A stretch of DNA of 64,000 bases from the NCBI GenBank assembly GCA_963744345.1, contig CAVUTD010000013.1, positions 20,415 to 84,414 of the forward strand, in the 5' to 3' direction. The translations under genes and the position numbers were made by a program. The DNA comes from an uncultured Verrucomicrobiae bacterium (GTDB lineage Bacteria; Verrucomicrobiota; Verrucomicrobiia; Chthoniobacterales; Terrimicrobiaceae). This document shows positions 23,063-49,263 of the stretch, in pieces. The notes beneath the pieces were generated by a model. The model was not told where the DNA came from. It saw nothing but the letters and a program-made list of their open reading frames with translations, and searched no databases. Position 1 is the stretch's first letter. Every line of letters starts with the position of its first letter.

Positions 23063-23199
23063 TGTTCTGGCTCTTCGGGGACGATGAAGCTACACGAAAG
23101 ATAAGTTTTTTCGTCGCTTCACGATTCTGGTCAACAAGATTCCCGATTTTATGCTTTCGCTTGAAAGTCCGTGTGATAAAGTTTCTGTGAAAGAAAAAC

Positions 23200-24669
23200 A
23201 TGACGACGACATTCTCTTTGAAAGATCCTGACCTTTTTCGTCAGCAAGCCTATATTGGCGGGCGCTGGTGCGATGCGGATAGCGGCGCGAGCCTGGAGGT
23301 CAATAATCCGGCGACCGGCGAGATCCTGGGGACAGTGCCCTTGATGGGCGCTAATGAAACCTGGCGCGCGATTGAGGCGGCCAAAGACGCCTTTGTCGAC
23401 TGGAGCCGAAGGCCTGCCAAAGAGCGCAGCGTGCTGATGCGCCGGTGGCATGATTTGATCATGACCAATGTCGACGACCTGGGCGCGCTAATGACTGCCG
23501 AACAGGGCAAGCCGCTGACCGAGGCGAAAGGTGAAGTCGCCTATGCCGCCTCCTTTATCGAGTGGTTCGCCGAGGAAGCCAAGCGGATCTACGGGGACAC
23601 CATTCCCTCTCCCTGGAATGATCGTCGCCTTGTCGTGATCAAGCAGCCCATCGGCGTTTGTGCGGCCATGACACCGTGGAATTTTCCCGCGGCGATGATC
23701 GCACGCAAGGCCGGACCAGCTCTGGCAGCGGGATGTACCATGGTGGCGAAACCCGCGAGCTCCACGCCATATTCGGCGTTCGCGTTCGCGGTGCTTGCCG
23801 AACGCGCCGGAATTCCCTCCGGCGTCCTTAACGTCATCACCGGCAATTCCAAGGAAATCGGTGGCGAGATGACTTCAAATCCCGATGTGCGCAAGATTAC
23901 TTTTACCGGCTCAACGGAGGTTGGCCGCCTGCTCATGAAGCAGAGCTCCGCCACGGTCAAGAAGCTTTCCCTGGAGCTCGGCGGCAACGCGCCCTTCATT
24001 GTCTTTGACGACGCCGATCTCGATGCCGCCGTTGAAGGAGCCATCATTTCCAAGTACCGCAACGCCGGCCAGACCTGTGTGTGCGCAAACCGGCTTTACG
24101 TGCAGGCCGGCGTCTACGATGCCTTTGCCGAGAAGCTCGTCGCGGCGGTCGGCAAGCTTAAGGTTGGCAACGGCTTTGAGCCGGGAGTTCAGCAGGGTCC
24201 TCTCATCGATAACGCCGCTGTTGAGAAGGTCGAGGAGCATATTGAGGATGCCGTTTCCAAAGGCGGCCATGTTCTTCTTGGAGGCAAGCGCCATGCCCTT
24301 GGCCAGACCTTCTTTGAACCGACCGTGCTGGCCGACGTTACTCCGAAGATGAAGGTCGCCAAAGAAGAGACCTTCGGGCCCTTGGCCCCTTTGTTCCGCT
24401 TCGAGACAGATGAGGAAGGGATCGAGATGGCCAACGATACGGAATTCGGCCTCGCGAGCTATTTCTATAGCCGTGACATTGGCCGCATCTGGCGGGCGGC
24501 TGAAGCGCTCGAATCCGGCATGGTGGGTATCAACACCGGTCTGATCTCCAACGAGGTTGCGCCGTTTGGCGGCGTGAAGCAGTCGGGGCTTGGCCGTGAG
24601 GGATCCCACTATGGGATAGAGGAATTCCTTGAAATAAAATACCTCTGCTTCGGCGGGCTCGATAAATGA
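23200..24669 (+). CDS. gabD: Succinate-semialdehyde dehydrogenase-type NAD(P)+ aldehyde dehydrogenase, copy 1
   Basis: 489-aa ORF. Contains the GabD-like N-terminus (FRQQAYIGGRW), ELGGNAP, and the catalytic Cys context GQTCVCANR. Confidence 0.85.
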   Translation: MTTTFSLKDPDLFRQQAYIGGRWCDADSGASLEVNNPATGEILGTVPLMGANETWRAIEAAKDAFVDWSRRPAKERSVLMRRWHDLIMTNVDDLGALMTAEQGKPLTEAKGEVAYAASFIEWFAEEAKRIYGDTIPSPWNDRRLVVIKQPIGVCAAMTPWNFPAAMIARKAGPALAAGCTMVAKPASSTPYSAFAFAVLAERAGIPSGVLNVITGNSKEIGGEMTSNPDVRKITFTGSTEVGRLLMKQSSATVKKLSLELGGNAPFIVFDDADLDAAVEGAIISKYRNAGQTCVCANRLYVQAGVYDAFAEKLVAAVGKLKVGNGFEPGVQQGPLIDNAAVEKVEEHIEDAVSKGGHVLLGGKRHALGQTFFEPTVLADVTPKMKVAKEETFGPLAPLFRFETDEEGIEMANDTEFGLASYFYSRDIGRIWRAAEALESGMVGINTGLISNEVAPFGGVKQSGLGREGSHYGIEEFLEIKYLCFGGLDK

Positions 24670-24681
24670 AGAGCACGTAGA

Positions 24682-26148
24682 ATGACGACAGTCTCTTTGG
24701 CGGATTCGGACCTTTTTCGTCAGCAAGCCTTTATCGGCGGACGCTGGTGCGATGCGGATAGCGCCGCGACGCTGGAGGTTAATGATCCCGCCACCGGGGA
24801 AATCCTGGGAACTGTGCCCTTGATGGGCGCAAACGAAACCTGGCGCGCAATTGAGGCGGCCAAAGACGCCTTTGTCGACTGGAGCCGAAGTCCTGCCAAA
24901 GAGCGGAGCGTGCTCATGCGCCGGTGGCATGATTTGATCATGGCCAATGTCGACGACCTCGGCGCGCTGATGACTGCCGAACAGGGCAAGCCGCTGACCG
25001 AGGCGAAAGGTGAAGTCGCCTATGCCGCCTCTTTTGTCGAGTGGTTCGCCGAGGAAGCCAAACGGATCTACGGGGACACCATTCCCTCTCCCTGGAGTGA
25101 TCGTCGCCTTGTCGTGATCAAGCAGCCTATCGGCGTTTGTGCGGCCGTCACACCGTGGAATTTTCCCACGGCGATGATTGCACGCAAGGCCGCGCCCGCT
25201 CTGGCAGCGGGATGTACCATGATCGCGAAGCCCGCGGAATCCACTCCCTACTCGGCCTTGGCACTTGCCGTACTGGCTGAACGCGCCGGAATTCCCGCCG
25301 GCGTTCTCAACGTGCTCACCGGAGCCGCCAAGGAAATTGGTGGCGAGATGACCTCAAATCCCGATGTGCGCAAGATTACTTTCACGGGCTCAACGGAGGT
25401 TGGCCGACTGCTCATGAAGCAGAGCTCGGCCACGGTCAAGAAGCTTTCCCTGGAGCTCGGCGGCAACGCGCCCTTCATCGTCTTTGATGATGCTGATCTC
25501 GATGCTGCCGTTGAAGGAGCCATCATTTCCAAGTACCGCAATGCCGGTCAGACCTGCGTCTGTGCGAACCGGCTGTACGTGCAGGCCGGCGTTTACGATG
25601 CCTTTGCCGAAAAGCTCGTTGCCGCGGTCGCAGAACTTAAGGTCGGCAATGGCTTCGAGCCGGGAGTTCAGCAAGGTCCTCTCATCGATAATGCGGCGGT
25701 CGAGAAAATCGAGGAGCATATCCAAGATGCGGTTTCCAAAGGCGGCCATGTTCTTCTTGGAGGCAAGCGCCATGCCCTTGGCCGCACCTTCTTCGAACCG
25801 ACAGTATTAGGGAACGTTACTACCCAAATGAAGGTTGCGAAAGAGGAGACCTTCGGACCATTGGCTCCTTTGTTCCGCTTCGAGACCGATGAGGAAGGCA
25901 TTCACCTGGCCAACGACACGGAATTTGGCTTGGCCAGCTATTTCTACAGTCGCGACATCGGCAGGATCTGGCGCGCGGCCGAAGCCTTGGAATGCGGTAT
26001 GGTCGGAATCAATACCGGCCTGATCTCCAACGAGGTTGCCCCCTTTGGGGGCGTCAAACAATCCGGGCTTGGGCGCGAGGGATCCCACTACGGAATAGAA
26101 GACTTCCTCGAGATAAAATACCTCTGCTTCGGCGGATTGAACCAATAA
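24682..26148 (+). CDS. gabD: Succinate-semialdehyde dehydrogenase-type aldehyde dehydrogenase, copy 2 (tandem paralog)
   Basis: 488-aa ORF, colinear with copy 1 and roughly 90 % or more identical to it by eye. It starts 12 nt after the copy 1 stop. Confidence 0.85.
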   Translation: MTTVSLADSDLFRQQAFIGGRWCDADSAATLEVNDPATGEILGTVPLMGANETWRAIEAAKDAFVDWSRSPAKERSVLMRRWHDLIMANVDDLGALMTAEQGKPLTEAKGEVAYAASFVEWFAEEAKRIYGDTIPSPWSDRRLVVIKQPIGVCAAVTPWNFPTAMIARKAAPALAAGCTMIAKPAESTPYSALALAVLAERAGIPAGVLNVLTGAAKEIGGEMTSNPDVRKITFTGSTEVGRLLMKQSSATVKKLSLELGGNAPFIVFDDADLDAAVEGAIISKYRNAGQTCVCANRLYVQAGVYDAFAEKLVAAVAELKVGNGFEPGVQQGPLIDNAAVEKIEEHIQDAVSKGGHVLLGGKRHALGRTFFEPTVLGNVTTQMKVAKEETFGPLAPLFRFETDEEGIHLANDTEFGLASYFYSRDIGRIWRAAEALECGMVGINTGLISNEVAPFGGVKQSGLGREGSHYGIEDFLEIKYLCFGGLNQ

Positions 26149-27113: not shown

Positions 27114-27481
27114 AATGATCAGTCGGAGTCTGTCTGGTTTTCTTGGTCGTCGCGTTACCGGCGCTCGGCCGGTTTTCTGCTTAGCTTGCACTCACCAAGA
27201 GCATTCGGTTATGACAGCAAGCACTCGTTCACCAAATTTGAGTTCATTTTTGACCAAGAGCCGCAGGAAGCCCGATTCAGTACCTTCAGTTTTCGCTATA
27301 ATGTTCTTGCAAGCAAGACATCCATACCCTACGACCTTTTGTCGGCTAGATGGACGCCAATCGACTGCGGAGCGCTTGCTCGAAAGTTCGATCAAGCGGC
27401 TTTGGCCTAACCAAGAAGTTCCCGAACACCAGAACCAAATTAAATTAGCCCGGGCTCCGGGCCCAACTCAGGAGATTTGAA

Positions 27482-28405
27482 ATGAAACGCTTTCTACTAG
27501 CATTGGCAGCTTCCGCCATCATGATGACCTGTGCGGTGGCGCAGAACGTCGGAGTCTGTATGGCTTATTTCGACGATCTTTTCCTTACCAATCTTCGCGA
27601 AGCCATGACGGCAACGGCGAAGGAAAAGGGCGTCAAGCTTCAATTTGAGGACGCGCAGGGGGACATCGGCAAGCAACTCAGTTCCATACAGAATTTCATC
27701 GCCCAGAAGGTTGATGCGATTGTTGTCAATCCTGTCGATAGCTCGGCGACGGCGCAGATGACGAAGCTGATTCAAGGCGCGGGCATCCCCCTTGTTTATG
27801 TCAACCGCGCGCCGCTCGAGCCGTTAAAGGGCGGCGAACCGGTCGTCTACGTCGGCTCCGACGAAAACGTGTCAGGCAAGCTGGAAGCCGAGGGAATCGC
27901 CAAGATGCTGAACGGCAAGGGCAACGTGGTTATCATGATGGGTGAACTTGCGACCCAGGCCGCCATCCTGCGAACCGAAGGCGCTGAGAAGGTTTTCAAA
28001 GAGCATCCAGAGATAAAGGTCGTGCAGAAGCAAACTGCCAACTGGCGGCGCAATGAGGCCATTGATCTCATGAACAACTGGTTGGTTGCCGGCACGAAGA
28101 TCGACGGCGTCTGCGCAAACAACGACGAGATGGCCATCGGGGCGATTATTGCGCTTCAGCAGGCGGGCAAGGATCCCAAGAAAGTTATCATCGGTGGGGT
28201 TGACGCAACTCGGGACGCGCTTGCGGAGATGGAGAAGGGCAACCTCGCTGTGACAGTTTTCCAGGATGCCAAGGGTCAGGGCAAGGCTGTGGTAGACTCG
28301 GTCACCAAGCTGCTCAAGAAGGAGAAATTTGAGTCTCCCTATGTCTATGTTCCGTTCGAACTGGTCACTAAGGAAAACTACAAGGAGTACCTCAAGAGGC
28401 TATAA
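27482..28405 (+). CDS. Sugar ABC transporter substrate-binding protein (RbsB/periplasmic binding protein type I)
   Basis: 307-aa ORF with a signal peptide. An AGGAG RBS sits about 8 nt upstream. It is followed by the ATPase and permease genes. Confidence 0.85.
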   Translation: MKRFLLALAASAIMMTCAVAQNVGVCMAYFDDLFLTNLREAMTATAKEKGVKLQFEDAQGDIGKQLSSIQNFIAQKVDAIVVNPVDSSATAQMTKLIQGAGIPLVYVNRAPLEPLKGGEPVVYVGSDENVSGKLEAEGIAKMLNGKGNVVIMMGELATQAAILRTEGAEKVFKEHPEIKVVQKQTANWRRNEAIDLMNNWLVAGTKIDGVCANNDEMAIGAIIALQQAGKDPKKVIIGGVDATRDALAEMEKGNLAVTVFQDAKGQGKAVVDSVTKLLKKEKFESPYVYVPFELVTKENYKEYLKRL

Positions 28406-31361: not shown

Positions 31362-32525
31362 ATGCCAGATGAGAGTAGGCGAAAAGTGAAGGTAGGCATG
31401 GTTGGCGGGGCGCCGGGCGCCGGCATTGCTGGTTCACACCGGATCGCGATGCGCCTGGATGACAGATACTCTTTGGTCGCAGGCGTCTTCTCACGAAATC
31501 CAGAAAAATCACGCGCTGCCGCCAGGCAGCTGGGAGTTCCTGAGGACCGGGCATATTCCGACTATGCAATCATGGCGGAGGCGGAAAGCAAGCGGGGAGA
31601 CAGGGTCGAGGCGGTGACCATTGTGACACCGACCGACAGCCATTACAAAATCGCTAAGAAGTTCCTGGAATCGCGAATGAATGTCATTTGTGACAAACCG
31701 CTCTGCCTCTCGGTCGCGGAAGCTAAGGAATTGAAAGACCTCGCCGAGCAGAAGGGGCTAATTCTTTGCTTAACGCACAATTATTCCGGTTATGCCATGG
31801 TGCGCCACGCTGCACGCATGGTCAGAAATGGCGATCTGGGAGAGATCAAGGTCGTCCAAGCGGAGCACGCCTCCGGGTGGGCTGCGACGTTGCTGGAAAA
31901 GCAAGGCCACACCCAGGCCGCTTGGAGGATGGATCCCACGTTGCTAGGTGACGCTAGCGTTCTCTATGACCTTGGTACCCATGCCCATCAGTTGACGCGT
32001 TTTATTACCGGTCTTGAGGTCACCGAAGTGGCTGCGGAATTGAGCCAGATCGTAGCAGGTCGAGCGATCAAAGACAACGCGAACTTGTTACTCCGGTTTT
32101 CCAATGGCGCGCGCGGAACTCTTTGGGCTTCGATGGCAGCGGTGGGAAACGAACACGGTCTCCGCATTCGTGTCTACGGAGACCGCGGTAGCCTGGCCTG
32201 GCATCAAGAAGATCCTTATCATCTGCGCTATTCTCCCATTGACGGACCGCCTCAGATCCTCGCGCAAGGCGCGGCTTGGCTCTCCCCGGACGCAGACAAA
32301 TGGACGCGCGCGGGACTCGGGCATCCGGAAGGTTTTTTCGAAGCATTTACCAACCTCTACACGGAAGTGGCCGACGCACTCCTTGCCAAAGCTGAGGGGC
32401 AGGCCTTTGCGAAAGCAGAGCTGGGATTCCCCGATGCGTCAGACGGGCTCTGCGGCGTGGCTTTTGTCGAGGCGGCAATGCGCTCTTATAAAGCTGGAGG
32501 TGCGTGGACGACCTTAGAAACGTAG
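31362..32525 (+). CDS. Gfo/Idh/MocA family oxidoreductase
   Basis: 387-aa ORF with the Rossmann motif VGMVGGAPGAGI and CDKPL. It ends with a TAG at 32523-32525. Confidence 0.85.
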   Translation: MPDESRRKVKVGMVGGAPGAGIAGSHRIAMRLDDRYSLVAGVFSRNPEKSRAAARQLGVPEDRAYSDYAIMAEAESKRGDRVEAVTIVTPTDSHYKIAKKFLESRMNVICDKPLCLSVAEAKELKDLAEQKGLILCLTHNYSGYAMVRHAARMVRNGDLGEIKVVQAEHASGWAATLLEKQGHTQAAWRMDPTLLGDASVLYDLGTHAHQLTRFITGLEVTEVAAELSQIVAGRAIKDNANLLLRFSNGARGTLWASMAAVGNEHGLRIRVYGDRGSLAWHQEDPYHLRYSPIDGPPQILAQGAAWLSPDADKWTRAGLGHPEGFFEAFTNLYTEVADALLAKAEGQAFAKAELGFPDASDGLCGVAFVEAAMRSYKAGGAWTTLET

Positions 32526-33277
32526 TAGAAATAAGTCGAGGGTGGGGAGGGGGAAGTGAGGTGAGGAGTGTAGGGGGAGGTGGGGGGTAGGGTGTGATGA
32601 GGTGAGGAGGAGGGTGAGGAGGGGGGTGGAGTGGGAGGGTGAAGTAGGATGGAGGTGAGGAGTGGGAGGGGGTGGAGTGGGAAGGAGTGTGAGGTGGGGT
32701 GGGGGGGGAGGAGGGTAGAGGTGGTATGTGTTGTGGGGAGATGGGGGGGGGGATGGGGGAGAGATAAGGGGGGTGGAGCATATGTGAAGAGGAGGAGAGT
32801 GGGGAAGGTGGGGGATGGTGAGAAAAGTGCGGGAGGATGAGTGAGAATGTGGAGGAAAATGAAGATGGTGAAGGGAGCGAGGGGAGCGCAAGAGGTGGAG
32901 GGGGAAGGAGCAAGATGCAAGATGGAATGAGTGGATAAAGAGGAGGAGAGGAGGAGATGTGATGATAGAAATGGTGGAGTGATAGAGAAGGAGTGGAAGG
33001 GAGAGATAGGGATGGGGGGGTGGAATGAATGGAGTAGAAGGAGAAGAAGCAAAGAAGTGGGTGAATGCACAAAAGGAGGGTATGGGGAAGCAGGAACGCG
33101 AGAAGATAAGAGGGGCGGGGGGAAGCGCGCAAGCCAGCGGCAACGCGAGGGAGTGAGTAGAACATGGAGAGGAGTGGAGAAAAGACAAGGGAGAAGGAAG
33201 TGAAGAAGAGGAGAGGAAAAAAAGAGAGGAAGTAAAAAAAGGAATGCGAAATAAGTATCTCAGAGAAGAAGGATCTT
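32526..33277 (+). repeat. Cytosine-depleted polypurine low-complexity tract (G-rich grading to A-rich), non-coding
   Basis: Manual count gives about 30 C in about 750 nt. There is no C at all at 32538-32778. G-runs reach 10 nt (32743-32752) and A7 runs occur near 33218-33240. Only degenerate short word repeats are present (GGTGAGGAG, GGAGGAGA x2 at 32942-32957). All three minus-strand frames are open purely because of the composition. Confidence 0.9.
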
Positions 33278-34273
33278 ATGATTAAAGTAGCCGTACTCGG
33301 AACAGGTTTCATTGGTTCTGTTCATGCGAAGAATGTCGCACGTCACCCGGCCACGGATTTGGTTGCCGTATGCGACGTGAACCCGGAAGCCGCCGGGAAG
33401 CTGGCAGCCGCGACAGGAGCCAAGGCGGTGGGCGATGCCGCAGAGATTTTCAAGAACAAGGACGTTGAGGCCGTCTTCATCTGCACGTCAACGAACACCC
33501 ACGTTGATTACCTCAAGCGATCAGCTCAAGCGGGCAAGGCGGTCTATTGCGAAAAGCCAATCGGCTTGGATTATCAGGAAGCGGTTGATGCCGTTAGCGC
33601 GGTCCGTGCGGCGAAGGTCCCCGTTATGCTCGGCTTCAACCGCCGATTCGATCCCAACCATGCCGCGCTGTGCGAAGAGGTTCGGCGCGGTGAAGTCGGA
33701 AATTTGGAGATCATTCAGATGACATCACGTGGCCCAAGCTTGCCCGCGATCAGTTACCTGGCTACTTCGGGAGGTCAACTGCGCGACCAGACGGTTCATT
33801 TCTTCGACCTTTTGCGGTGGATCACCAACGATGAAGCCGAAGAGGTGTTCGCCCTTGGAGCCGCTATGGTAGATCCCAAGGTCGCCGAGGTCGGAGATGT
33901 GGACACCAGCGCCGTAACGATTCGGATGACCTCCGGAGCGCTCTGTCAGATCGACTCTTCTCGACGCACGGGTTACGGATACGATGAACGGATTGAAGTC
34001 TTCGGCTCCAAGGGGATGATTGAATCGCGTCGTCAGCGCGCCCGCGGAGTCTCAAGATATTCGGGCGACAAAGTCATTGAGGATGGCCTCCATGCGGGAT
34101 GGTTCGAGCGGATCGAGCAAAGTTATTATCGCGCTCTGGATTCCTTTGCGGAGGCGATCGCTAAGGGCACTCCACCCAGTCCATCGCTTGAGGATGGCTT
34201 GAGAGCTCAATTGCTGGCCGACAAGGCCACGGAATCGCTAAGGACAGGACGATCAGTCACAGTTGCAAGTTAA
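33278..34273 (+). CDS. iolG: Inositol 2-dehydrogenase-like Gfo/Idh/MocA oxidoreductase
   Basis: 331-aa ORF containing VAVLGTGFIGSVH, YCEKP, GFNRRFDP and SGGQLRDQTVHFFD. Confidence 0.75.
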   Translation: MIKVAVLGTGFIGSVHAKNVARHPATDLVAVCDVNPEAAGKLAAATGAKAVGDAAEIFKNKDVEAVFICTSTNTHVDYLKRSAQAGKAVYCEKPIGLDYQEAVDAVSAVRAAKVPVMLGFNRRFDPNHAALCEEVRRGEVGNLEIIQMTSRGPSLPAISYLATSGGQLRDQTVHFFDLLRWITNDEAEEVFALGAAMVDPKVAEVGDVDTSAVTIRMTSGALCQIDSSRRTGYGYDERIEVFGSKGMIESRRQRARGVSRYSGDKVIEDGLHAGWFERIEQSYYRALDSFAEAIAKGTPPSPSLEDGLRAQLLADKATESLRTGRSVTVAS

Positions 34274-35189
34274 TCACTTCTTAAGGTATTCCTTATAGTT
34301 CTCTTGGGTGACAAGCTCGAAAGGGATCCATACAAAGGGCTCAACTTTCTCGCCCTTGATGAGCTTGACCGCGGTCTCCACGGCACCCTTCCCCTGACCA
34401 TTTCCGTCTTGGAAGACGGTCACATCGAGGTTGCCCTTTTCCATCTCAGCAAGCGCGTCCGGTGTTGCGTCAATTCCCCCGATGACAACTTTCTTTGGAT
34501 CCTTGCCGGACTGCTGCAGCGCGAGGATCGCTCCGATTGCCATCTCGTCGTTATTCGCGGCGACGGCGTCGATCGGCGTTCCGGCAACCAACCAGTTGTT
34601 CATGAGGTCGATGGCCTCGCTCCGCCGGAAGTTAGCGGTTTGCTTTCCGACAATTTTCATCTCCGGGTGTTGGGCGACGACTTTTTCTACGCCCTCGGTG
34701 CGCAAAACGGCGGCCTGGGTCGCCAGTTCGCCCACCATGATGACCATATTGCCCTTGTTGTTCAACAATTTGGCGATCGCCTCGCCCTCGAGCTTACCCT
34801 ACACGTTCGCGGTCAGAGGCACCATAGGCGACGCCCTTGGGCAAAGTTTCCTCAGCAGGCCTAAGGTTGACATAGACCAGAGGAATGCCGGCAGCGGTAA
34901 CAAGCTTCGTCATCTTTGGTGTCGCCGTGGTATCGACAGGGTTGATGATGATCGCATCCATCCCCGCAGTTATGAAATTTTGTATCTGATTGAGCTGCTT
35001 TCCGATATCCCCCGAGGCGTCCTCGAATTGGATATCCACTCCCATCTCCTTTGCTTTTGCGGTCATGGCCTCACGGACTTTGACGAGAAAAAGGTGCTCG
35101 AAGGCGGACAGAGTGACTCCGATTTTTTGGGCCATCGCAGACGTCATTAGTGTGGCAAAAGCCGCGAATGCTATTATCAGGCGTTTCAT
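34274..35189 (-). pseudogene. RbsB-like sugar-binding protein paralog, disrupted by a frameshift plus an in-frame TAG
   Basis: ORFs 34794..35189 (signal peptide plus N-lobe) and 34274..34768 (C-lobe) are colinear with the intact protein at 27482..28405. At the junction, ...YGASD switches frame to ANV-TAG-GKLEGEAIAKLLNNKGN. The TAG is at 34799-34801 and the frame change at about 34808-34815. Confidence 0.8.
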
Positions 35190-37511: not shown

Positions 37512-38505
37512 ATGTCTAGAGTAAGGATTGGGATTTTGGGGGCCGGCTTTATTGCCAAGGTGCATATCGGGAATTTGAAAAATGATGAACGCGTCGAAAT
37601 TGCTAGTGTAGTCGACTTGTATTTGGATAAAGCTAAGACGCTTGCCAAGGAAGCGGGACCTCAGGCGAACGCTTTCAGTTCCTTGGACGAGCTATTCGCA
37701 CAGTGAGGTAGACGCGGTCTACGTGACAACGCCTAACACGTTACATGTCGAACCGGTTCTCAAATGCCTGGAAAACAACGTGAACGTATTCTGCGAAAAG
37801 CCAATGGCTACTTCGTTGCGTGAGGCGGAACAAATCAAGGAGGCACAGGCAAAGTCCAAAGGGATTTACAATCTTGGGATGAATATGAGGTATGGTTATG
37901 TCTTTAAGAGAGTAAAAGAGCTAATCGACTCGGGAGAGGTGACGCCTTATATGGTGAACGTAAAACTGAACCGTGGAGAGCTGCTGAATCCGCCGTGGAC
38001 GGCGGACCCTAAAGTGACGGGAGGTTTTCTTTATGAAACGCCGATTCATTTGTTCGACATCTGTCGGTACCTGTTTGGGGAAGTGGCCACCGTGAAGTGC
38101 GAGGCAAGACAGAGTATTTCGCAATCTGAGTTTGATGATTTCGCCGTCCTGCTTACTTTTGAATCCGGGACGATTGGGACCTTCGTAACCTCTGCGCATG
38201 CGGGATGGAGTTATCCTTTTCAGAGGTTGGAGATTTATGGCAAATACTCCACCATCGCAGTGGAAGATATGGAGAAAGTAATTTACGCCCCGGGTCTGAA
38301 GCGGGCAACGGAGGAAAGCGATTTTAAACAGGTTCCCTTTGAGGAAAAATGGGGATATGTTGAAGAAGACCGTCTATTTGTTGATGCGATTCTCAATGGG
38401 ACCAAACCTCCTGTTACGGCAGACGACGGATATCTTTTGAGCAGGCTATTGGATGGAATCTACGAGAGCGCCAAAACAGGTAATCAATTGGATTTTCGTC
38501 AATGA
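37512..38505 (+). pseudogene. Gfo/Idh/MocA oxidoreductase split by a frameshift near 37690-37705
   Basis: ORF 37512..37706 holds the Rossmann N-terminus (IGILGAGFIAKVH...SSLDELFAQ-stop). ORF 37642..38505 continues with SEVDAVYVTTPNTLH...FCEKPMA. Confidence 0.8.
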
Positions 38506-45321: not shown

Positions 45322-45607
45322 AACTCTGGAGACATCCGTGAAGGGATCACCGACATCGCTGATCTATGGCGGCCAAGTTCACATTCGCCCAAAGTTACAC
45401 GGACGTGCTCCTTTAGGCATTCCCTCTCTGCTCGCTGCTGTGATGTCTCGGGCGTAGCTTCGGGCGTGGCACATCAACAAGCAACATCAACGCGATTACA
45501 GCTGCGAGTCCCCGTGCACTCATGAACCAAGACACAGCGCTCGCCTTGCGGCGAAAAGCCAAAACACGCCAGCCGTAGCCTGATCCTGGGTAAATCCTTG
45601 CGCCAAT

Positions 45608-45793
45608 TCACCGACAAGCTGGCCCCGCGTTACCGATATAGCCAATGCGACCGGCCTCACGTGCCGCTTGCTGCTGACGTTCCAGTTGAGCAGTCCACAT
45701 GCGGTCCGCGCCCCTAGATACGGGTGGATTGCTGGCGCATCCGAGGAGCAGCAAAAAGACTACGGCTGCGAGGAAAGCAAGGCGAAAGCTCAC
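45608..45793 (-). CDS. Small putative lipoprotein
   Basis: 61-aa ORF with a GTG start and the lipobox LLLGC. There is no other support. Confidence 0.35.
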   Translation of the reverse strand: MSFRLAFLAAVVFLLLLGCASNPPVSRGADRMWTAQLERQQQAAREAGRIGYIGNAGPACR

Positions 45794-45953
45794 ATAATGC
45801 CCTACGACCCGCGCGATCGTTTGGGTATTTCCTTCCTTCCCTTGCCACTATGCTCGGCCCGCGTTCACAAAGATGGAACCAGGGCACCCATAAGGAAAAA
45901 GCCCGCGAGGACCCATCTCTGCCGAAAGGCGCGCCGGGCGTTTGAGCGTTAAC

Positions 45954-46109
45954 TTAGGCGATAGCTTTTTTGCGGCCCGCGGCAAGCGTCAAAAGTCCAA
46001 GTTCCAAGAGGATGGCAGTGCTTCCGTTATCAGGAACTTTAGGCCGCGCCGCATCGTGGCTGTTCAGAAGAGCGAACGGCGGAGAATCGAAGCCAACACC
46101 GTCGATCAA
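45954..46109 (-). other. VPDSG/PEP-CTERM-type C-terminal sorting signal, out of frame with the upstream secreted protein
   Basis: Translation gives ...FDSPPFALLNSHDAARPKVPDNGSTAILLELGLLTLAAGRKKAIA-stop, that is a VPDxG motif, a hydrophobic helix and a basic tail. There is no ATG or GTG start; only TTG or CTG codons are available. The frame opens at 46145, inside the 3' end of the upstream gene. Confidence 0.6.
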
Positions 46110-46570
46110 TTGGCGTAAGCCAGGCGAATCTTCCAGTGCCGGGCATCACGAACATAGATCGCTACATAGCAGCCCTGTTGAGTGATATAATGATGACTTA
46201 AATCCGACATGGCGCATATATCGTTGCCGATCATATACACCTGAACAACGGTATGTGACAGCTTTCTGGGATTCGATACAAACAGGCTTGCATACCTTTT
46301 CTCGATGGCTTGCTGACCGACTGCCACGTCAGCCGCAGGCTCCCACGCCACTACTTCAATTGCGTTCTGTGTGTAAAGGGCTGCGAGTGCGGCCGCGTCG
46401 TGTTTATTATACGCCTCCTCATACTTCCTTATTGCCGCTTCAATCTGCTGACGCAACTCTGGATTGGCCGAACGCACTTCTGGATCGGCCGAATCTTGCT
46501 CTGGGGCGAGGGCTGGCGCGGCAATGCCGATTGCCAACGCTGCGAAGGTAGATAGCAGGCGCATTTTCAT
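46106..46570 (-). CDS. Secreted DUF4440/SnoaL-like (NTF2-fold) protein
   Basis: ORF open to 46804; the ATG at 46570 gives a signal peptide (MKMRLLSTFAALAIGIAAPALA). The NTF2-like pattern is IRKYEEAYNKHDAAALAALYTQNA... Confidence 0.6.
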   Translation of the reverse strand: MKMRLLSTFAALAIGIAAPALAPEQDSADPEVRSANPELRQQIEAAIRKYEEAYNKHDAAALAALYTQNAIEVVAWEPAADVAVGQQAIEKRYASLFVSNPRKLSHTVVQVYMIGNDICAMSDLSHHYITQQGCYVAIYVRDARHWKIRLAYAN

Positions 46571-46902
46571 TGTCTCTAAACAACCGCGCGCAGGCAGCGA
46601 ACGCGACGAGAGCAGAAAGCGTGAGGAGAGTTGAAACACCCGTGTGGCCGGAAGAATCTGGTAGCGGTAGACTTGGTAGATTTCGGTTGATGGCGAACCA
46701 TAGAATCGGACGAATCGGCTACTCAAAGACATCGCTTTACGAGACCAACCAGCGCTAAGGCCTCGTCCCATGCGCGGCGATAACCTTTGACAAACCGTCT
46801 GCAATTTTTACAGAAATTGCAATTTGGTGTTTCCCTAGTAATCACCAGCAGATCCTTTATTCATGTGGATTAGAGAGTGATTTGACCGTGTTGAGACACT
46901 CG

Positions 46903-46975
46903 CAGCGCATACGGGATTCGAACCCGTGTACCGGCCTTGAGAGGGCCGTGTCCTAGGCCTCTAGACGAATGCGCC
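46903..46975 (-). tRNA. tRNA-Glu (anticodon CUC)
   Basis: Folded by hand. Sequence is GGCGCAT-TC-GTCT-AGAGGCCTAGGAC-A-CGGCC-CTCTCAA-GGCCG-GTAC-ACGGG-TTCGAAT-CCCGT-ATGCGCT-G. The cloverleaf has a TTCGAAT T-loop. CCA is not encoded. The ends are good to about 2 nt. Confidence 0.85.
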
Positions 46976-47044
46976 TTGAAGAATCCGTAATCTAGAGCAC
47001 TACTTGAAGCTGACAAGCGACAACTCGGGAACGCAGCGAAGAAC

Positions 47045-47293
47045 ATGGAATTAAACCTATACATCAAGCCATGGTGCCCCTGGTGCATTGAGGCCATCGC
47101 ATGGCTTGAAGAGAATGGATATAAGTTTAACAAGATCGATGTGCTCGCTGATCCCGTGGCGTACGAGCGGATGCGTCGCATCTCAAGGCAATCGCTCACT
47201 CCAACCTTAGAAATTTCGGCGGGTTTGGTGCTGCCTGATTTTGATGTCGCCGACCTCGAGAAGTTCGTGCTAGAAAACGCACCACTGCCTTGA
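47045..47293 (+). CDS. Glutaredoxin-like protein (CPWC active site)
   Basis: 82-aa ORF containing LYIKPWCPWCIEAIAWLEENGY and ...TPTLEI, a thioredoxin-fold pattern. Confidence 0.7.
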   Translation: MELNLYIKPWCPWCIEAIAWLEENGYKFNKIDVLADPVAYERMRRISRQSLTPTLEISAGLVLPDFDVADLEKFVLENAPLP

Positions 47294-48111
47294 CAATCTC
47301 TCATCTGCTCTTCGTTCTCGGGGTGGCTTTTTTTAGCGCAGCCCTGCGATCTTTTCAAAATTCACTGCTCTTTCGCTTGGGCACCCTGGGCGTAGTGGTG
47401 ACGTCGTTTCTCGTTGGGTGGCTGCTGGGCGGAAGCGTTATTCTCGGCGCACTCCTCGCCGCAAGTTGGCTCTTTTTGCCTTGGCTCGAGATTCTGACAA
47501 AAGTACGCCGCCTGCGGCTTCCCCTTGAGCGAAGACTCGAGCCGCGCTCTCCGCCCACCCGCAGTTCCTTTCCCGGCTTTCAAGAAATGACCGAGGAGAT
47601 CGAAAGTCACGGCTACGTACACCTGGAGGATGTTGGCTGGGACTACCAGGAGAACCGCCACTTCTATCGTGTCTTTCACCGACCAGAGTGCAAAACCCAG
47701 GCGTGTATCTGTCTCTCAGAGCAGGAAGACATGGCTTTCCATTACTTGACAATTACCTCCCGCACCCAAGATGGGCGAGCTTTCATAACCTGGAACTACC
47801 CGTTTTCCTACGGCTTAAAGTTGCAGCCCCACCTCTTTACTAATAGATGCCTTAGTCAGGGACCCTTCGCGGAGATGCGAATGGCCCACGAGACGTTTCT
47901 GCGTTCCCACAGCGTGGATCCCTCTGCCCTTCTCGACCCCTCGCCGGAGGAAACAGTTCCGACCATGCAGAAGGAGATGCGAGCTCAGATCACGCACAAC
48001 ATCACCCTAGGCTTGCTTGCTCAGGATGGAGATCACTTTATTCGCTACACAACACGCGGAATGTTCTACCTCTGGTTCCAATTTCTCCGAGACCTTGTCC
48101 GGCTTTCTTGA
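47290..48111 (+). CDS. Hypothetical membrane protein
   Basis: 273-aa ORF with a TTG start that overlaps the glutaredoxin stop (TTGA). It has about three N-terminal TM helices. I do not recognise the family. Confidence 0.45.
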   Translation: MTISHLLFVLGVAFFSAALRSFQNSLLFRLGTLGVVVTSFLVGWLLGGSVILGALLAASWLFLPWLEILTKVRRLRLPLERRLEPRSPPTRSSFPGFQEMTEEIESHGYVHLEDVGWDYQENRHFYRVFHRPECKTQACICLSEQEDMAFHYLTITSRTQDGRAFITWNYPFSYGLKLQPHLFTNRCLSQGPFAEMRMAHETFLRSHSVDPSALLDPSPEETVPTMQKEMRAQITHNITLGLLAQDGDHFIRYTTRGMFYLWFQFLRDLVRLS

Positions 48112-48352
48112 CAGGAGCGCAGGCCGCCAGCCGCAGGAAAGCGACGTGCGGCGACGACAACCTTTGCATAAAAGTAAGGTTATCGGCTGAGCATAGAATG
48201 ACCTGACGTTTAGAAGTTAATCAGAGTTCGATTTCGAGCTATGCAAATGCCGGCCTTGGCTTTTCCGTACTGCCGACAAAGAAGGGCAATTTGTGTGTTC
48301 CGCGAAGCAGAAGAGCAACGATCTGAGCTTTGCATGACCATGAGCAGCTTCA

Positions 48353-49042
48353 TTAGGGCAGGCTCCCGATGCGCTTGGGACGAACAGCTTTGTCAGGAGA
48401 TAAGGCGCCTTGTTGGTAAAGAAACTCCGACAAAGCAGCGGTGACTTCGCGCGAAGTGCGAAGGATGTCAAAGGTGAGTCCCGAGCGCGTGCCTTCGAAG
48501 AGGTTTGCCGCGGAAAAGAGTGCCGTAAATCCTGTGACGAAATAGGCGACGCTGCCAACGGCACCCGGCATTGCATTGGAACCTCCGGTCGTCTGCATCA
48601 GGAGAAATGGCCTTGGTCTCCTCTGCGAGAGATCGTAGACGACGGTGCTCATATCAAGTTTGGTCCCGCCTGCGCCGAATCCAACGACAGACCTGAGCAG
48701 ACGACTGCCTTGATTGACTCCGTCAAAGCGTGCGGCAATCAGCCAGTAATTTCCTCCGGGCAATGGAGCGGTCGAGGCGACAGCTTGCGCCGGCGCGATA
48801 TGTCTGGAAAGTTGTTGCACGAGGTTGCGAGTAAATTTTTCCTGAAGTTCGTATTTGAAGTTTTGCAGGTTAACTCCGCTACGATCAACCCGAAGAGCAG
48901 GATCATAGAAGGTCGGAGGTCTTACCAGGATTCGCTCCGGGCTTCTTGTCGGCGCACGCGCGGTCAGGAGGTCAGATCTCTCGACACTTACCGAGGCGCA
49001 TCCGGCAAGCGCAGCGCACAACAGGAGAAAGCAGCATCTCAC
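48353..49042 (-). CDS. Lipoprotein (DUF4410-like)
   Basis: 229-aa ORF with a GTG start and the lipobox LAGCAS. It has Gly-rich C-terminal segments (GFGAGGTKL, GGSNAMPGAVGS). Confidence 0.5.
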   Translation of the reverse strand: MRCCFLLLCAALAGCASVSVERSDLLTARAPTRSPERILVRPPTFYDPALRVDRSGVNLQNFKYELQEKFTRNLVQQLSRHIAPAQAVASTAPLPGGNYWLIAARFDGVNQGSRLLRSVVGFGAGGTKLDMSTVVYDLSQRRPRPFLLMQTTGGSNAMPGAVGSVAYFVTGFTALFSAANLFEGTRSGLTFDILRTSREVTAALSEFLYQQGALSPDKAVRPKRIGSLP

Positions 49043-49263
49043 TTCGAAGATCCTAGCCGTTCAGCAAGCAAGACAATGATTTTCTCGTTGCCAATACGCT
49101 GGATGCCCTTTTGTTCAAGGCTTCATACAGATTAAGGAAGGCGCGAGAACAATGATCAACGCATCGCTGACGAGTTCGGGATACACCACTGATCGCAACC
49201 ACAAATCTTTTCTCCAGGCATATTCTCGCCTGACGACTACATTACCCTACGGAGGATTTCTTG

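What the first reader, a model, noticed from the sequence alone, without database searches (positions are those of the whole stretch)
32526..33277. 750-nt cytosine-depleted polypurine tract filling an entire intergenic spacer
This tract is the whole spacer from the TAG of the oxidoreductase gene ending at 32525 to the ATG at 33278.

- **Composition:** it is almost only G, A and some T on the plus strand. My manual count is about 30 C in about 750 nt (about 4 %). The flanking coding DNA uses all four bases normally.
- **Gradient:** the 5' part is about two thirds G, the middle is mixed GA, and the 3' part is A-dominated with A7 runs.
- **Repeat structure:** it is not a clean tandem repeat. I see only degenerate recurring words: GGTGAGGAG, GGTGGAGTGGGA(G/A)GG about 44 nt apart, and GGAGGAGA twice in tandem at 32942-32957.
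- **What it is not:** it has no CRISPR-like spacing and encodes no believable protein.
- **Context:** both flanking genes are on the plus strand, so the tract would be transcribed as a C-poor, G/A-rich RNA within or between two Gfo/Idh/MocA genes of the cyclitol cluster.

I know of no described bacterial element with this architecture. Extreme strand-asymmetric purine tracts of this length are rare in bacterial chromosomes.
Basis: partly seen in the sequence, partly recalled or inferred. Interest (0 to 1): 0.85.

Follow-up and report, generated by a model that had tools for sequence, protein, structure and literature searches.

The report
Purine-rich 720-bp insertion in operon spacer
A soil verrucomicrobial genome carries a one-off 720-base insertion of almost cytosine-free, random-looking G/A-rich DNA between two inositol-pathway genes; about 30 related genomes lack it, so it is more likely recently acquired non-coding DNA than a conserved functional element.

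Summary
Window 32526-33277 is 752 nt with 30 C (4.0%), 51% G, 32% A and 13% T, and it grades from G-rich to A-rich. It is the only such region in the window and in about 0.95 Mb of related loci.

It is not the ancestral spacer. In about 30 Terrimicrobiaceae/Chthoniobacterales relatives the same gene pair (387-aa oxidoreductase, then iolG) is separated by only 21-99 nt, including the closest relative at 92% aa identity. The window equals that short spacer plus exactly 720 bp, bounded by a perfect 9-bp direct repeat, GAAATAAGT (32528-32536 and 33248-33256).

- **What the 711-nt body is not:** it is not coding, not a repeat array, has no Rfam hit and has no homologue.
- **Odd sequence rule:** pyrimidines are almost never adjacent.
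- **Physical properties:** it has almost no Watson-Crick folding potential, holds all four G-quadruplex motifs of the window, and is rich in Shine-Dalgarno-like words.
- **One outside match:** a metagenome contig made of G/A islands carries the 9-mer joined to the insert's first 20 nt. This favours homology-guided integration of foreign DNA over a simple staggered-cut duplication.

Best reading: a young, lineage-specific, probably unselected insertion. An assembly artefact (about 0.18) cannot be excluded without reads.

The parts
31362..32525 (+). Upstream flank: 387-aa Gfo/Idh/MocA oxidoreductase, intact
   Evidence: ORF. NCBIfam gives Gfo/Idh/MocA-type hits only. Orthologues at 74-92% aa identity in Terrimicrobiaceae/Chthoniobacterales.
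32526..32536 (+). Native 5' part of the spacer (TA + GAAATAAGT). Copy 1 of the 9-bp direct repeat is at 32528-32536.
   Evidence: Aligns with the relatives' spacers. A relative's spacer (L062) also contains GAAATAAG.
32537..33247 (+). Insert body, 711 nt: G 374, A 224, T 86, C 27. Non-coding, non-repetitive, with isolated pyrimidines.
   Evidence: YY dinucleotides 2 against 18 expected, P = 2e-6; no codon periodicity. (RNA MFE -33 against -253±16 kcal/mol). No Rfam, protein, plasmid or phage match.
32537..32780 (+). G-rich, essentially C-free 5' zone of the insert. Holds three of the four canonical G-quadruplex motifs (32612-32639, 32696-32715, 32735-32759). The first 20 nt, CGAGGGTGGGGAGGGGGAAG, are shared with metagenome contig L087.
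33091..33146 (+). Patch with near-normal C content (16 of the tract's 30 C), embedded in the A-rich half. Origin unknown.
   Evidence: C positions. No matching template elsewhere in the window.
33150..33247 (+). A-rich 3' zone of the insert with two A7 runs, ending in ...GGAATGC
   Evidence: Longest pure purine run is 31 nt, starting at 33202.
33248..33256 (+). Copy 2 of the 9-bp direct repeat GAAATAAGT
   Evidence: the only two occurrences in 64 kb (0.26 expected) lie exactly at the two borders of the tract, 720 bp apart.
33257..33277 (+). Native 3' part of the spacer, with the purine-rich ribosome-binding region of iolG (ATCTCAGAGAAGAAGGATCTT)
   Evidence: Collinear with the relatives' spacers.
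33278..34273 (+). Downstream flank: iolG (inositol 2-dehydrogenase), intact, last gene of the + strand operon
   Evidence: TIGR04380, 370 bits against a cutoff of 355. Synteny in relatives.

Best explanation
The tract is a recent, lineage-specific insertion of 720 bp: a 711-nt body plus a second copy of the 9-mer GAAATAAGT. It sits in the short (about 38 nt) conserved spacer between the penultimate and last genes of an inositol/sugar operon in a Terrimicrobiaceae-like verrucomicrobium.

The inserted DNA is non-coding, non-repetitive and strand-asymmetric, with G/A plus isolated T on the + strand. It most likely came from outside this locus.

**How it got in (inferred).** It was most likely integrated by recombination or template switching at a 9-nt identity shared by donor and target. 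An independent metagenome contig carries that 9-mer joined directly to the insert's first 20 nt. A donor bounded by the 9-mer on both sides, that is a small circle or a concatemer of about 720 nt, would give exactly the observed structure after one crossover.

**What it does (inferred).** It is probably not maintained for a function. Its expected physical effects are:
- on the DNA, a G-rich non-template strand prone to G-quadruplexes and R-loops;
- on the mRNA, a leader of about 0.7 kb without Watson-Crick structure and crowded with Shine-Dalgarno-like words.

Together these would uncouple iolG from the upstream genes and probably lower or destabilise its expression. iolG keeps its own ribosome-binding site.

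**Shown versus inferred.** Shown: the insertion, the direct repeat, its absence in relatives, and the composition and statistics. Inferred: the foreign origin, the integration route and the effects on expression.
For: 1. **Insertion, not ancestral.** About 30 orthologous loci keep permease-oxidoreductase-iolG with a spacer of 21-99 nt (median about 32) and no purine tract. The closest known orthologue (92% aa, L081) has a 33-nt spacer. With the 720 bp removed, the window aligns collinearly with those spacers.
2. **Insertion signature.** GAAATAAGT occurs only twice in 64 kb (0.26 expected), exactly at the two borders.
3. **The donor carried the 9-mer.**
   - L087 positions 2611-2647 match 35/37 nt of [insert 3' end + 9-mer + insert first 20 nt].
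   - This is the only site in L087 within 2 edits of GCGAAATAAGT.
   - None of the other 16 hits to the 20-mer extends beyond it.
4. **Not a gene, repeat array or known RNA**.
5. **Not copied from nearby DNA**. No transposase, integrase or reverse transcriptase was found in any ORF checked: 24 by HMM search, the rest only by inspecting the first residues of their translations.
6. **Physical properties**.
   - RNA MFE is -33 kcal/mol, against -253±16 for control windows.
   - All four canonical G4 motifs of the window lie inside the tract, and 31% of 25-nt windows have a G4Hunter score above 1.5.
   - GGAGG, AGGAG and AGGAGG are 17-37 times enriched.
7. **Tolerance is plausible.** The window holds several other Gfo/Idh/MocA paralogues, and the neighbouring binding-protein gene is already frameshifted.
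8. **The assembly is otherwise clean.** There are about 55 long intact ORFs. The tract's longest internal exact repeat is 15 nt, so it can be assembled unambiguously.
Against: - No reads are available, so physical reality is unproven.
- The source genome and close strains are absent from every collection searched. Presence/absence polymorphism and other copies in the genome could therefore not be checked.
- The link to a donor rests on a single unclassified contig (L087).
- The similarity to L087 stops after about 37-55 nt. The rest of L087 is organised differently, as 56 G/A islands of 18-100 nt.
- Only 6 of 7 extra bases favour a circular or concatemeric junction over a plain match to the window's 5' junction.
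- No known biological source of such DNA has been identified.
- No recombinase or other integration machinery was found in the window.
- The effects on expression are purely predicted.
Confidence: 0.5

Rival explanations
1. Sequencing or assembly artefact. The 711 nt are not in the organism's DNA: they are junk carried in by a chimeric or noisy read, an amplification by-product, or a mis-join.
For: - The composition is extreme and unique, and there is no homologue anywhere.
- The source genome is absent from all collections, so no independent assembly confirms the tract.
- G- and A-rich junk is a known failure mode of two-colour chemistry, and template switching at microhomology is typical of MDA chimeras (own knowledge, not checked here).
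- The only frameshifted gene seen in the window lies 1.5 kb away.
Against: - The rest of the window is clean, with about 55 intact long ORFs.
- The tract is 711 nt long, far more than a short read. It is non-repetitive (longest exact repeat 15 nt), so several overlapping reads would need to carry identical 'noise'.
- It lies exactly in an intergenic spacer with both genes and the iolG RBS intact, and it is bounded by a perfect 9-bp repeat.
- Part of its junction sequence recurs in an independent JGI sample.
- T is 12% with a strict no-adjacent-pyrimidine rule, which is not the pattern of poly-G dropout.
Confidence: 0.18
2. De novo product of template-independent DNA synthesis. A purine-preferring untemplated polymerase (an Abi/UG class 1 reverse-transcriptase-like enzyme, or terminal-transferase-type activity during break repair) made a long random strand. 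That strand was converted to duplex DNA and captured at a chromosomal break.
For: - Apart from composition, the sequence is statistically random and has no codon phase.
- It uses essentially two letters plus isolated T. Pyrimidines are never adjacent, and T is followed by G in 80% of cases. That is what stacking-driven untemplated addition could produce (inference).
- There is precedent for biased random DNA. AbiA makes almost exclusively A+C, while AbiK uses all four nucleotides (PMC11077055). DRT4 makes random ssDNA with a preference for dATP and dGTP (PMC12783706).
Against: - A random product should not share a 20-mer plus the adjoining 9-mer with an unrelated metagenome contig.
- Reported DRT4 products average 62-80 nt in vitro, are single-stranded and are protein-linked. 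No route to chromosomal integration is known.
- No RT-like gene was found in the window.
- The smooth G-to-A gradient is unexplained.
Confidence: 0.12
3. Non-autonomous mobile or retroposed element. A novel short element moved by a trans-acting enzyme and generated a 9-bp target-site duplication, with an A-rich 3' end as in target-primed reverse transcription.
For: - A perfect 9-bp direct repeat at the borders.
- An A-rich 3' end with two A7 runs next to the 3' repeat.
- A junction motif shared with another sample.
Against: - There are no terminal inverted repeats (0 inverted repeats), and a purine-only strand cannot form them.
- There is a single copy in 64 kb and none in 0.95 Mb of related loci.
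- The terminal 20-mer finds only one relevant hit in 241 million metagenome records and none in viral contigs.
- No transposase or RT is nearby.
- The 9-mer seems to belong to the donor as well, which does not fit a true target-site duplication.
- The 3' end is not a homopolymer.
Confidence: 0.08
4. Selected cis-regulatory element. The tract is kept because its G-quadruplex/R-loop-forming DNA, or its unstructured Shine-Dalgarno-rich RNA, tunes iolG expression or insulates it from the upstream genes.
For: - Strong predicted G4 potential, unique in the window, together with very low RNA structure and SD-word enrichment.
- It sits inside an operon, upstream of an intact iolG with its native RBS.
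Against: - It is absent from all of about 30 orthologous loci, including the closest at 92% aa identity.
- There is no sequence family, no covarying structure, no promoter-like or terminator-like site inside it and no Rfam hit.
- Only this one instance is known.
Confidence: 0.07
5. In situ expansion. A purine-rich motif of the native spacer expanded by replication slippage into a micro- or minisatellite that has since decayed.
For: - The native spacer is itself purine-rich (GAGAAGAAGGA).
- TRF finds weak periodicities of 8-33 nt.
Against: - Repeated k-mer content equals that of composition-matched shuffles, and the best TRF score is only 99.
- The G-rich 5' half resembles nothing in the spacer.
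- The body is bounded by a 9-mer repeat rather than growing out of a motif.
- The junction is shared with L087.
Confidence: 0.03

Closest known systems
Long G-rich, strand-asymmetric R-loop/G-quadruplex-forming tracts of eukaryotes (e.g. immunoglobulin class-switch regions, polypurine·polypyrimidine tracts)
   Same: - Hundreds of nt with G clusters on the non-template strand of a transcribed unit, and almost no C on that strand.
- Canonical G4 motifs and a high G4Hunter score.
- Degenerate rather than perfectly repeated words.
   Different: - This one is bacterial, a single copy and not conserved.
- It has no recognisable repeat unit.
- It is only 84% purine with interspersed T, and mirror repeats are at chance level. 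It therefore does not qualify as an H-DNA tract.
- No associated machinery is present.
Filler DNA / microhomology-mediated insertions at repaired breaks or stalled forks (MMEJ, template switching), and Campbell-type integration of a small circle at a short shared core
   Same: - A foreign segment inserted cleanly in a non-essential spacer and bounded by a short perfect direct repeat.
- The same short sequence appears to be present in the donor.
   Different: - Filler insertions are usually tens of nt and copied from nearby DNA. Here there are 711 nt with no template in the window.
- No recombinase or attachment-site family was identified.
- The circular or concatemeric donor is inferred, not observed.
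Products of template-independent Abi/UG reverse-transcriptase-like polymerases (AbiA, AbiK, DRT4)
   Same: - Long DNA of random sequence with a strong nucleotide bias. AbiA makes A+C only, and DRT4 prefers dA and dG.
- The tract is random-like apart from its composition.
   Different: - Those products are protein-primed single strands made during phage defence. They are not known to be integrated into chromosomes.
- DRT4 products average 62-80 nt in vitro.
- No such gene is present in the window.
- The shared junction with L087 argues for inheritance from a template.
Pan-edited mitochondrial cryptogenes of kinetoplastids (G/A-rich, T- and C-poor pre-edited genes)
   Same: From my own knowledge, not tested here: the base composition and the length range of some hundreds of nt are similar. 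The L087 contig's G/A islands have the same flavour.
   Different: - The host here is a bacterium.
- T residues are strictly isolated rather than in runs.
- L087's inter-island DNA is 48% GC overall with 28% C, unlike AT-rich maxicircles.
- No comparison with edited mRNAs was possible.

Membership tests
Tandem repeat array (micro/minisatellite) | Head-to-tail copies of a recognisable unit, in excess of what the composition predicts | tested here: not met
   TRF gives only weak rows (best score 99, 65-100% matches, 2-6.5 copies). Repeated 6- to 12-mers have z = -0.2 to 1.4 against block shuffles, and the longest exact repeat is 15 nt, within the shuffle range.
CRISPR array | Regularly spaced near-identical direct repeats separated by unique spacers | tested here: not met
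   The repeat finder gives only three two-copy families at 81-94% identity with irregular spacing.
Protein-coding gene (either strand) | Codon periodicity and/or homologues | tested here: not met
   - Base-by-phase chi-square is 2.3 (p = 0.89), against p about 1e-10 for both flanking genes.
- All three minus-strand frames are open simply because TTA, CTA and TCA are absent from the + strand.
- The 321-aa minus-strand ORF has no hit in NCBIfam or among 5.8 billion protein clusters.
Known structured RNA (Rfam) | Match to a covariance model | tested here: not met
   No hit at gathering threshold across the window except one tRNA elsewhere. No hit at E <= 1 in 32300-33500. The predicted MFE is only -33 kcal/mol for 711 nt.
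DDE transposon / MITE | Terminal inverted repeats | tested here: not met
   0 inverted repeats in 32400-33400. The ends are CGAGGG... and ...GGAATGC.
DDE transposon / MITE | Target-site duplication of fixed length | tested here: inconclusive
   A perfect 9-bp direct repeat is present. However, the 9-mer is also joined to the insert's start in L087, which suggests shared donor/target homology rather than duplication.
DDE transposon / MITE | Multiple copies in the genome or in relatives | tested here: not met
   A single tract in the window and none in 0.95 Mb of loci. The terminal 20-mer gives no second copy in metagenome or viral collections. The rest of the source genome is not available.
Retroposed (target-primed reverse transcription) insertion | 3' poly(A) tail abutting the 3' duplication, and an RT source | tested here: inconclusive
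   The last 52 nt of the spacer tract (33226-33277, which includes the repeat copy and the native 3' spacer) are 48% A, and the insert's 3' zone has two A7 runs. However, the insert ends in GGAATGC and is not homopolymeric. No RT domain was found in the 24 window ORFs checked by HMM search.
H-DNA (intramolecular triplex) tract | Homopurine·homopyrimidine mirror repeat | tested here: not met
   One mirror repeat (arm 11, spacer 8), against a mean of 1.05 in shuffles. The longest pure purine run is 31 nt.
G-quadruplex-forming sequence | Four runs of at least 3 G with loops of 1-7 nt; G4Hunter above 1.5 | tested here: met
   Four non-overlapping motifs, the only ones on either strand of the 64 kb. 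G4Hunter mean is 1.22, maximum 3.08, with 31% of windows above 1.5. Folding in vivo was not tested.
Untemplated Abi/UG-RT product | Random sequence with enzyme-specific nucleotide bias | tested here: met
   Random-like k-mer statistics. 84% purine, comparable with the dA/dG preference reported for DRT4.
Untemplated Abi/UG-RT product | Made de novo, so no templated relatives, and a cognate polymerase gene is present | tested here: not met
   The junction segment is shared with L087. No RT-like ORF was seen in the window. The rest of the genome is not available.
Site-specific integrated element (attL/attR around a shared core) | Identical core at both junctions and in the donor; a recombinase | tested here: inconclusive
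   The core is present at both junctions, and in a donor-like sequence with one extra base. No integrase or recombinase was found in the window. No circular form was observed.

The most novel reading that the evidence does not exclude
The tract is the integrated copy of a small circular or concatemeric G/A-rich DNA of about 720 nt, of a kind not yet described. It could be the duplex form of a purine-biased polymerase product, or an unknown replicon or organellar-type sequence related to the G/A-island DNA of contig L087. It would have entered the chromosome by recombination at a 9-nt core. Bacteria would then occasionally fix such 'non-genic' synthetic-looking DNA in their chromosomes.
Probability: 0.1. 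Interest if true: 0.8.

Novelty: new variant of a known kind. Interest (0 to 1): 0.45.

Why it matters
If the tract is real, it is a rare natural example of a long, strand-asymmetric, G4/R-loop-prone tract sitting inside a bacterial operon.

- **Natural experiment.** It shows how such DNA affects transcription, translation coupling and genome stability in a bacterium.
- **Origin question.** It is a clean, datable insertion of DNA with no recognisable source. That raises the question of where 0.7 kb of near-random two-letter DNA comes from. Candidates are foreign eukaryote-like DNA, a small circle, or the product of an untemplated polymerase.
- **If an artefact.** It would be a useful warning case for genome quality control.

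It is not conserved, so it says little about inositol metabolism itself.

Tried and rejected
1. **Identical flanking proteins in public assemblies.** Exact look-ups found nothing. The closest orthologue is 92% identical, so strain-level polymorphism could not be tested.
2. **Similarity searches with the region.** The 2.9-kb region gave no plasmid match by megablast. The insert gave no plasmid or phage match by sensitive blastn, with the low-complexity filter on.
4. **Junction 20-21-mers in viral contigs.** No hits.
5. **Proteins.**
   - The minus-strand 321-aa ORF has no homologue.
   - An ORF of L087 covering the shared motif also has no homologue, so L087's organism remains unknown.
6. **L087 itself.**
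   - It has no Rfam hit at E <= 0.1 and no tRNA.
   - It has no similarity to the window or the other loci under standard low-complexity-filtered blastn/tblastx; the 37-nt junction match appeared only in the unfiltered short-word search.
   - No long ORFs appear after its G/A islands are excised.
7. **Templated patches.** No part of the insert is copied from elsewhere in the window beyond shuffle level.
8. **Rejected on composition.**
   - Hypermutation by cytosine or adenine deamination: T is not enriched.
   - Bisulfite-like conversion.
   - Channel failure in two-colour chemistry: the G fraction is too high, and the T pattern is too structured.
9. **L062's disrupted orthologue.** It is an internal duplication plus frameshifts in a noisy MAG, unrelated to the tract.
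Full report
**1.

Window 32526-33277 is 752 nt with A 243, C 30, G 383 and T 96. That is 4.0% C, against 27.9% for the whole window. GC skew reaches +0.98.

G falls from 61-65% in the first 200 nt to 27-41% at the 3' end. A rises from about 20% to 43-48%. A 241-nt stretch has no C at all.

It is the only window-scale depletion of any base in the 64 kb. It is also the only strongly purine-rich region in 947 kb of window plus fetched loci.

One refinement is needed: purines make up 84%, and the longest uninterrupted purine run is 31 nt. 'C-depleted G/A/T tract' is therefore more exact than 'polypurine tract'.

**2. It is an insertion, not the spacer**

The upstream protein places the locus in Verrucomicrobiota, in the Terrimicrobiaceae/Chthoniobacterales. 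About 30 of the fetched loci keep the order permease, oxidoreductase, iolG. In them the last two genes are separated by only 21-99 nt (median about 32), and none has a purine tract.

The closest protein among 5.8 billion clusters is 92% identical. Its contig has a 33-nt spacer.

GAAATAAGT occurs at 32528-32536 and 33248-33256, exactly 720 bp apart. These are its only two occurrences in 64 kb, where 0.26 are expected. With the 720 bp removed, the window's spacer reads TAGTAGAAATAAGTATCTCAGAGAAGAAGGATCTTATG. This aligns collinearly with the relatives' spacers. One relative's spacer even contains GAAATAAG.

So the ancestral spacer was about 38 nt, and 711 nt of new DNA plus a second copy of the 9-mer were added in this lineage.

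**3. What the 711 nt are not**

- **Not coding.** Base composition does not differ by codon phase (p = 0.89), whereas it does strongly in both flanking genes (p about 1e-10). The long ORFs in all three minus-strand frames arise because adjacent pyrimidines are missing from the + strand, so TTA, CTA and TCA never occur there. The 321-aa ORF has no family or homologue.
- **Not a repeat array.** TRF and the repeat finder give only weak, short matches. Repeated 6- to 12-mers are no more frequent than in block shuffles that keep local composition (z = -0.2 to 1.4).
- **Not a known RNA**.
- **No inverted repeats**.
- **No promoter-like or terminator-like site inside it**.
- **No similarity to plasmids or phages**.
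- **No piece copied from elsewhere in the window**.

**4. What is unusual inside it**

Apart from composition the sequence behaves like a random string, with one strong rule: pyrimidines are almost never adjacent. There are 2 YY dinucleotides where 18 are expected (Poisson P = 2e-6). TT occurs once where about 10 are expected, and T is followed by G in 69 of 86 cases. The spacing between T residues is otherwise geometric.

A patch at 33091-33146 holds more than half of all the C residues.

**5. Physical properties (predicted)**

- As RNA the + strand has an MFE of -33 kcal/mol, against -253±16 for other 711-nt windows. It has essentially no Watson-Crick structure.
- All four canonical G4 motifs of the 64 kb are in the tract, and 31% of its 25-nt windows exceed a G4Hunter score of 1.5.
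- Shine-Dalgarno-like words are 17-37 times enriched.
- Mirror repeats, which H-DNA requires, are at chance level.

Both flanking genes are on the + strand. The G-rich strand is therefore the non-template strand, which is the arrangement that favours R-loops (inference from established knowledge).

**6. One related sequence elsewhere**

I scanned the metagenome collection for the insert's first 20 nt and found 15 hits. The same scan of viral contigs found 2. Sixteen of the 17 lie in ordinary high-GC DNA and do not extend beyond the 20-mer.

The exception is L087, a 5.1-kb JGI contig. There GGAAAGCGAAATCAAGT directly precedes the 20-mer. This matches 35/37 nt of the window's [insert 3' end GGAATGC + GAAATAAGT] followed by [insert start]. 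It is the only site in L087 within two edits of GCGAAATAAGT.

L087 itself is unusual. It consists of 56 G/A islands of 18-100 nt, all on one strand, alternating with pyrimidine-leaning stretches of 4-93 nt. It has no long ORFs, no tRNA, no Rfam hit and no protein homologue. I could not identify its organism.

The implication is that the 9-mer belonged to the donor DNA as well as to the target. This favours integration guided by a 9-nt identity over a staggered-cut target duplication. The route could be a single crossover with a small circle or concatemer, or two template switches. This rests on one contig. Only 6 of 7 additional bases distinguish a circular junction from a plain match to the window's 5' junction.

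**7. Context**

The window is an ordinary chromosomal inositol/sugar catabolism region. It encodes an iolC-like kinase fusion, iolD, iolB, an aldehyde dehydrogenase, several xylose-isomerase-like TIM barrels, several Gfo/Idh/MocA paralogues and ABC transporters. No reverse transcriptase, transposase or integrase was found in any ORF checked; 24 were checked by HMM search and the rest only by inspecting the start of their translations.

The assembly looks clean, with about 55 long intact ORFs. The one visible defect is a +1 frameshift in the convergent binding-protein gene just downstream of iolG.

**8. Interpretation**

The best-supported reading is a young, lineage-specific insertion of foreign, non-coding DNA at a 9-nt homology. 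It is tolerated in a redundant locus and not selected for a function. Predicted side effects are G4/R-loop formation and uncoupling of iolG from the upstream genes.

The rivals, with my estimated probabilities, are:

- an assembly artefact (about 0.18);
- a captured product of an untemplated, purine-preferring polymerase (about 0.12);
- a novel mobile or retroposed element (about 0.08);
- a selected regulatory element (about 0.07);
- a decayed in situ expansion (about 0.03).

The artefact reading cannot be excluded without reads. It is disfavoured by the clean insertion signature, the non-repetitive 711 nt, the clean surroundings and the L087 match.

The untemplated-polymerase reading has real precedent in the literature. 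AbiA makes A+C-only random DNA (PMC11077055), and DRT4 makes random ssDNA with a dA/dG preference (PMC12783706). It conflicts with the shared junction, however, and no integration route is known.

**9. Novelty**

No known family fits. The tract resembles eukaryotic G-rich R-loop/G4 tracts in its physical properties, and filler or small-circle integrations in how it probably arose. I rate it a new variant of known kinds, of moderate interest. Interest would rise sharply if a circular or polymerase-derived origin were shown.

Noticed in passing
window 34277-35189 (- strand): The periplasmic sugar-binding protein gene convergent with iolG is split into two ORFs (34794-35189 and 34274-34768). The cause is a single extra base relative to the intact 304-aa orthologue in L082, and it is not in a homopolymer. 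It is either a pseudogene or a local sequence error, about 1.5 kb from the tract. An intact paralogue lies at 27449-28405 (69% identical to the L082 protein).
   Followed up: partly
L087 1-5121 (JGI Ga0179593_1605417): The whole 5.1-kb metagenome contig consists of 56 G/A islands of 18-100 nt, all on one strand, alternating with pyrimidine-leaning stretches of 4-93 nt. G runs reach 13 nt. It has no long ORFs, tRNAs, Rfam hits or protein homologues. The organism is unknown. It shares a 37-nt junction motif with the window's insert.
   Followed up: partly
window 23191-24669 and 24670-26148 (+ strand): Two back-to-back aldehyde-dehydrogenase-like genes (490 and 489 aa) have nearly identical N-termini. 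They look like a recent tandem duplication.
   Followed up: no
window 37612-38505 (+ strand): This Gfo/Idh/MocA ORF matches only positions 59-117 of the 120-position NAD-binding domain model, starts at TTG, and follows a 198-nt gap. It may be an N-terminally truncated paralogue.
   Followed up: no
L062 6001-7500 (MAG MFD06742.bin.3.549): The orthologous oxidoreductase gene in this relative carries an internal duplication of about residues 123-236 plus frameshifts. iolG is also frameshifted. This is probably a noisy or collapsed long-read assembly. Its spacer contains GAAATAAG.
   Followed up: partly
window 45584-49135: The region around the only tRNA gene (46903-46975, - strand) has short ORFs, weak codon-position GC signal and two ORFs without Pfam hits (47245-48111, 48404-49135). 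It may be non-coding or decayed sequence.
   Followed up: no
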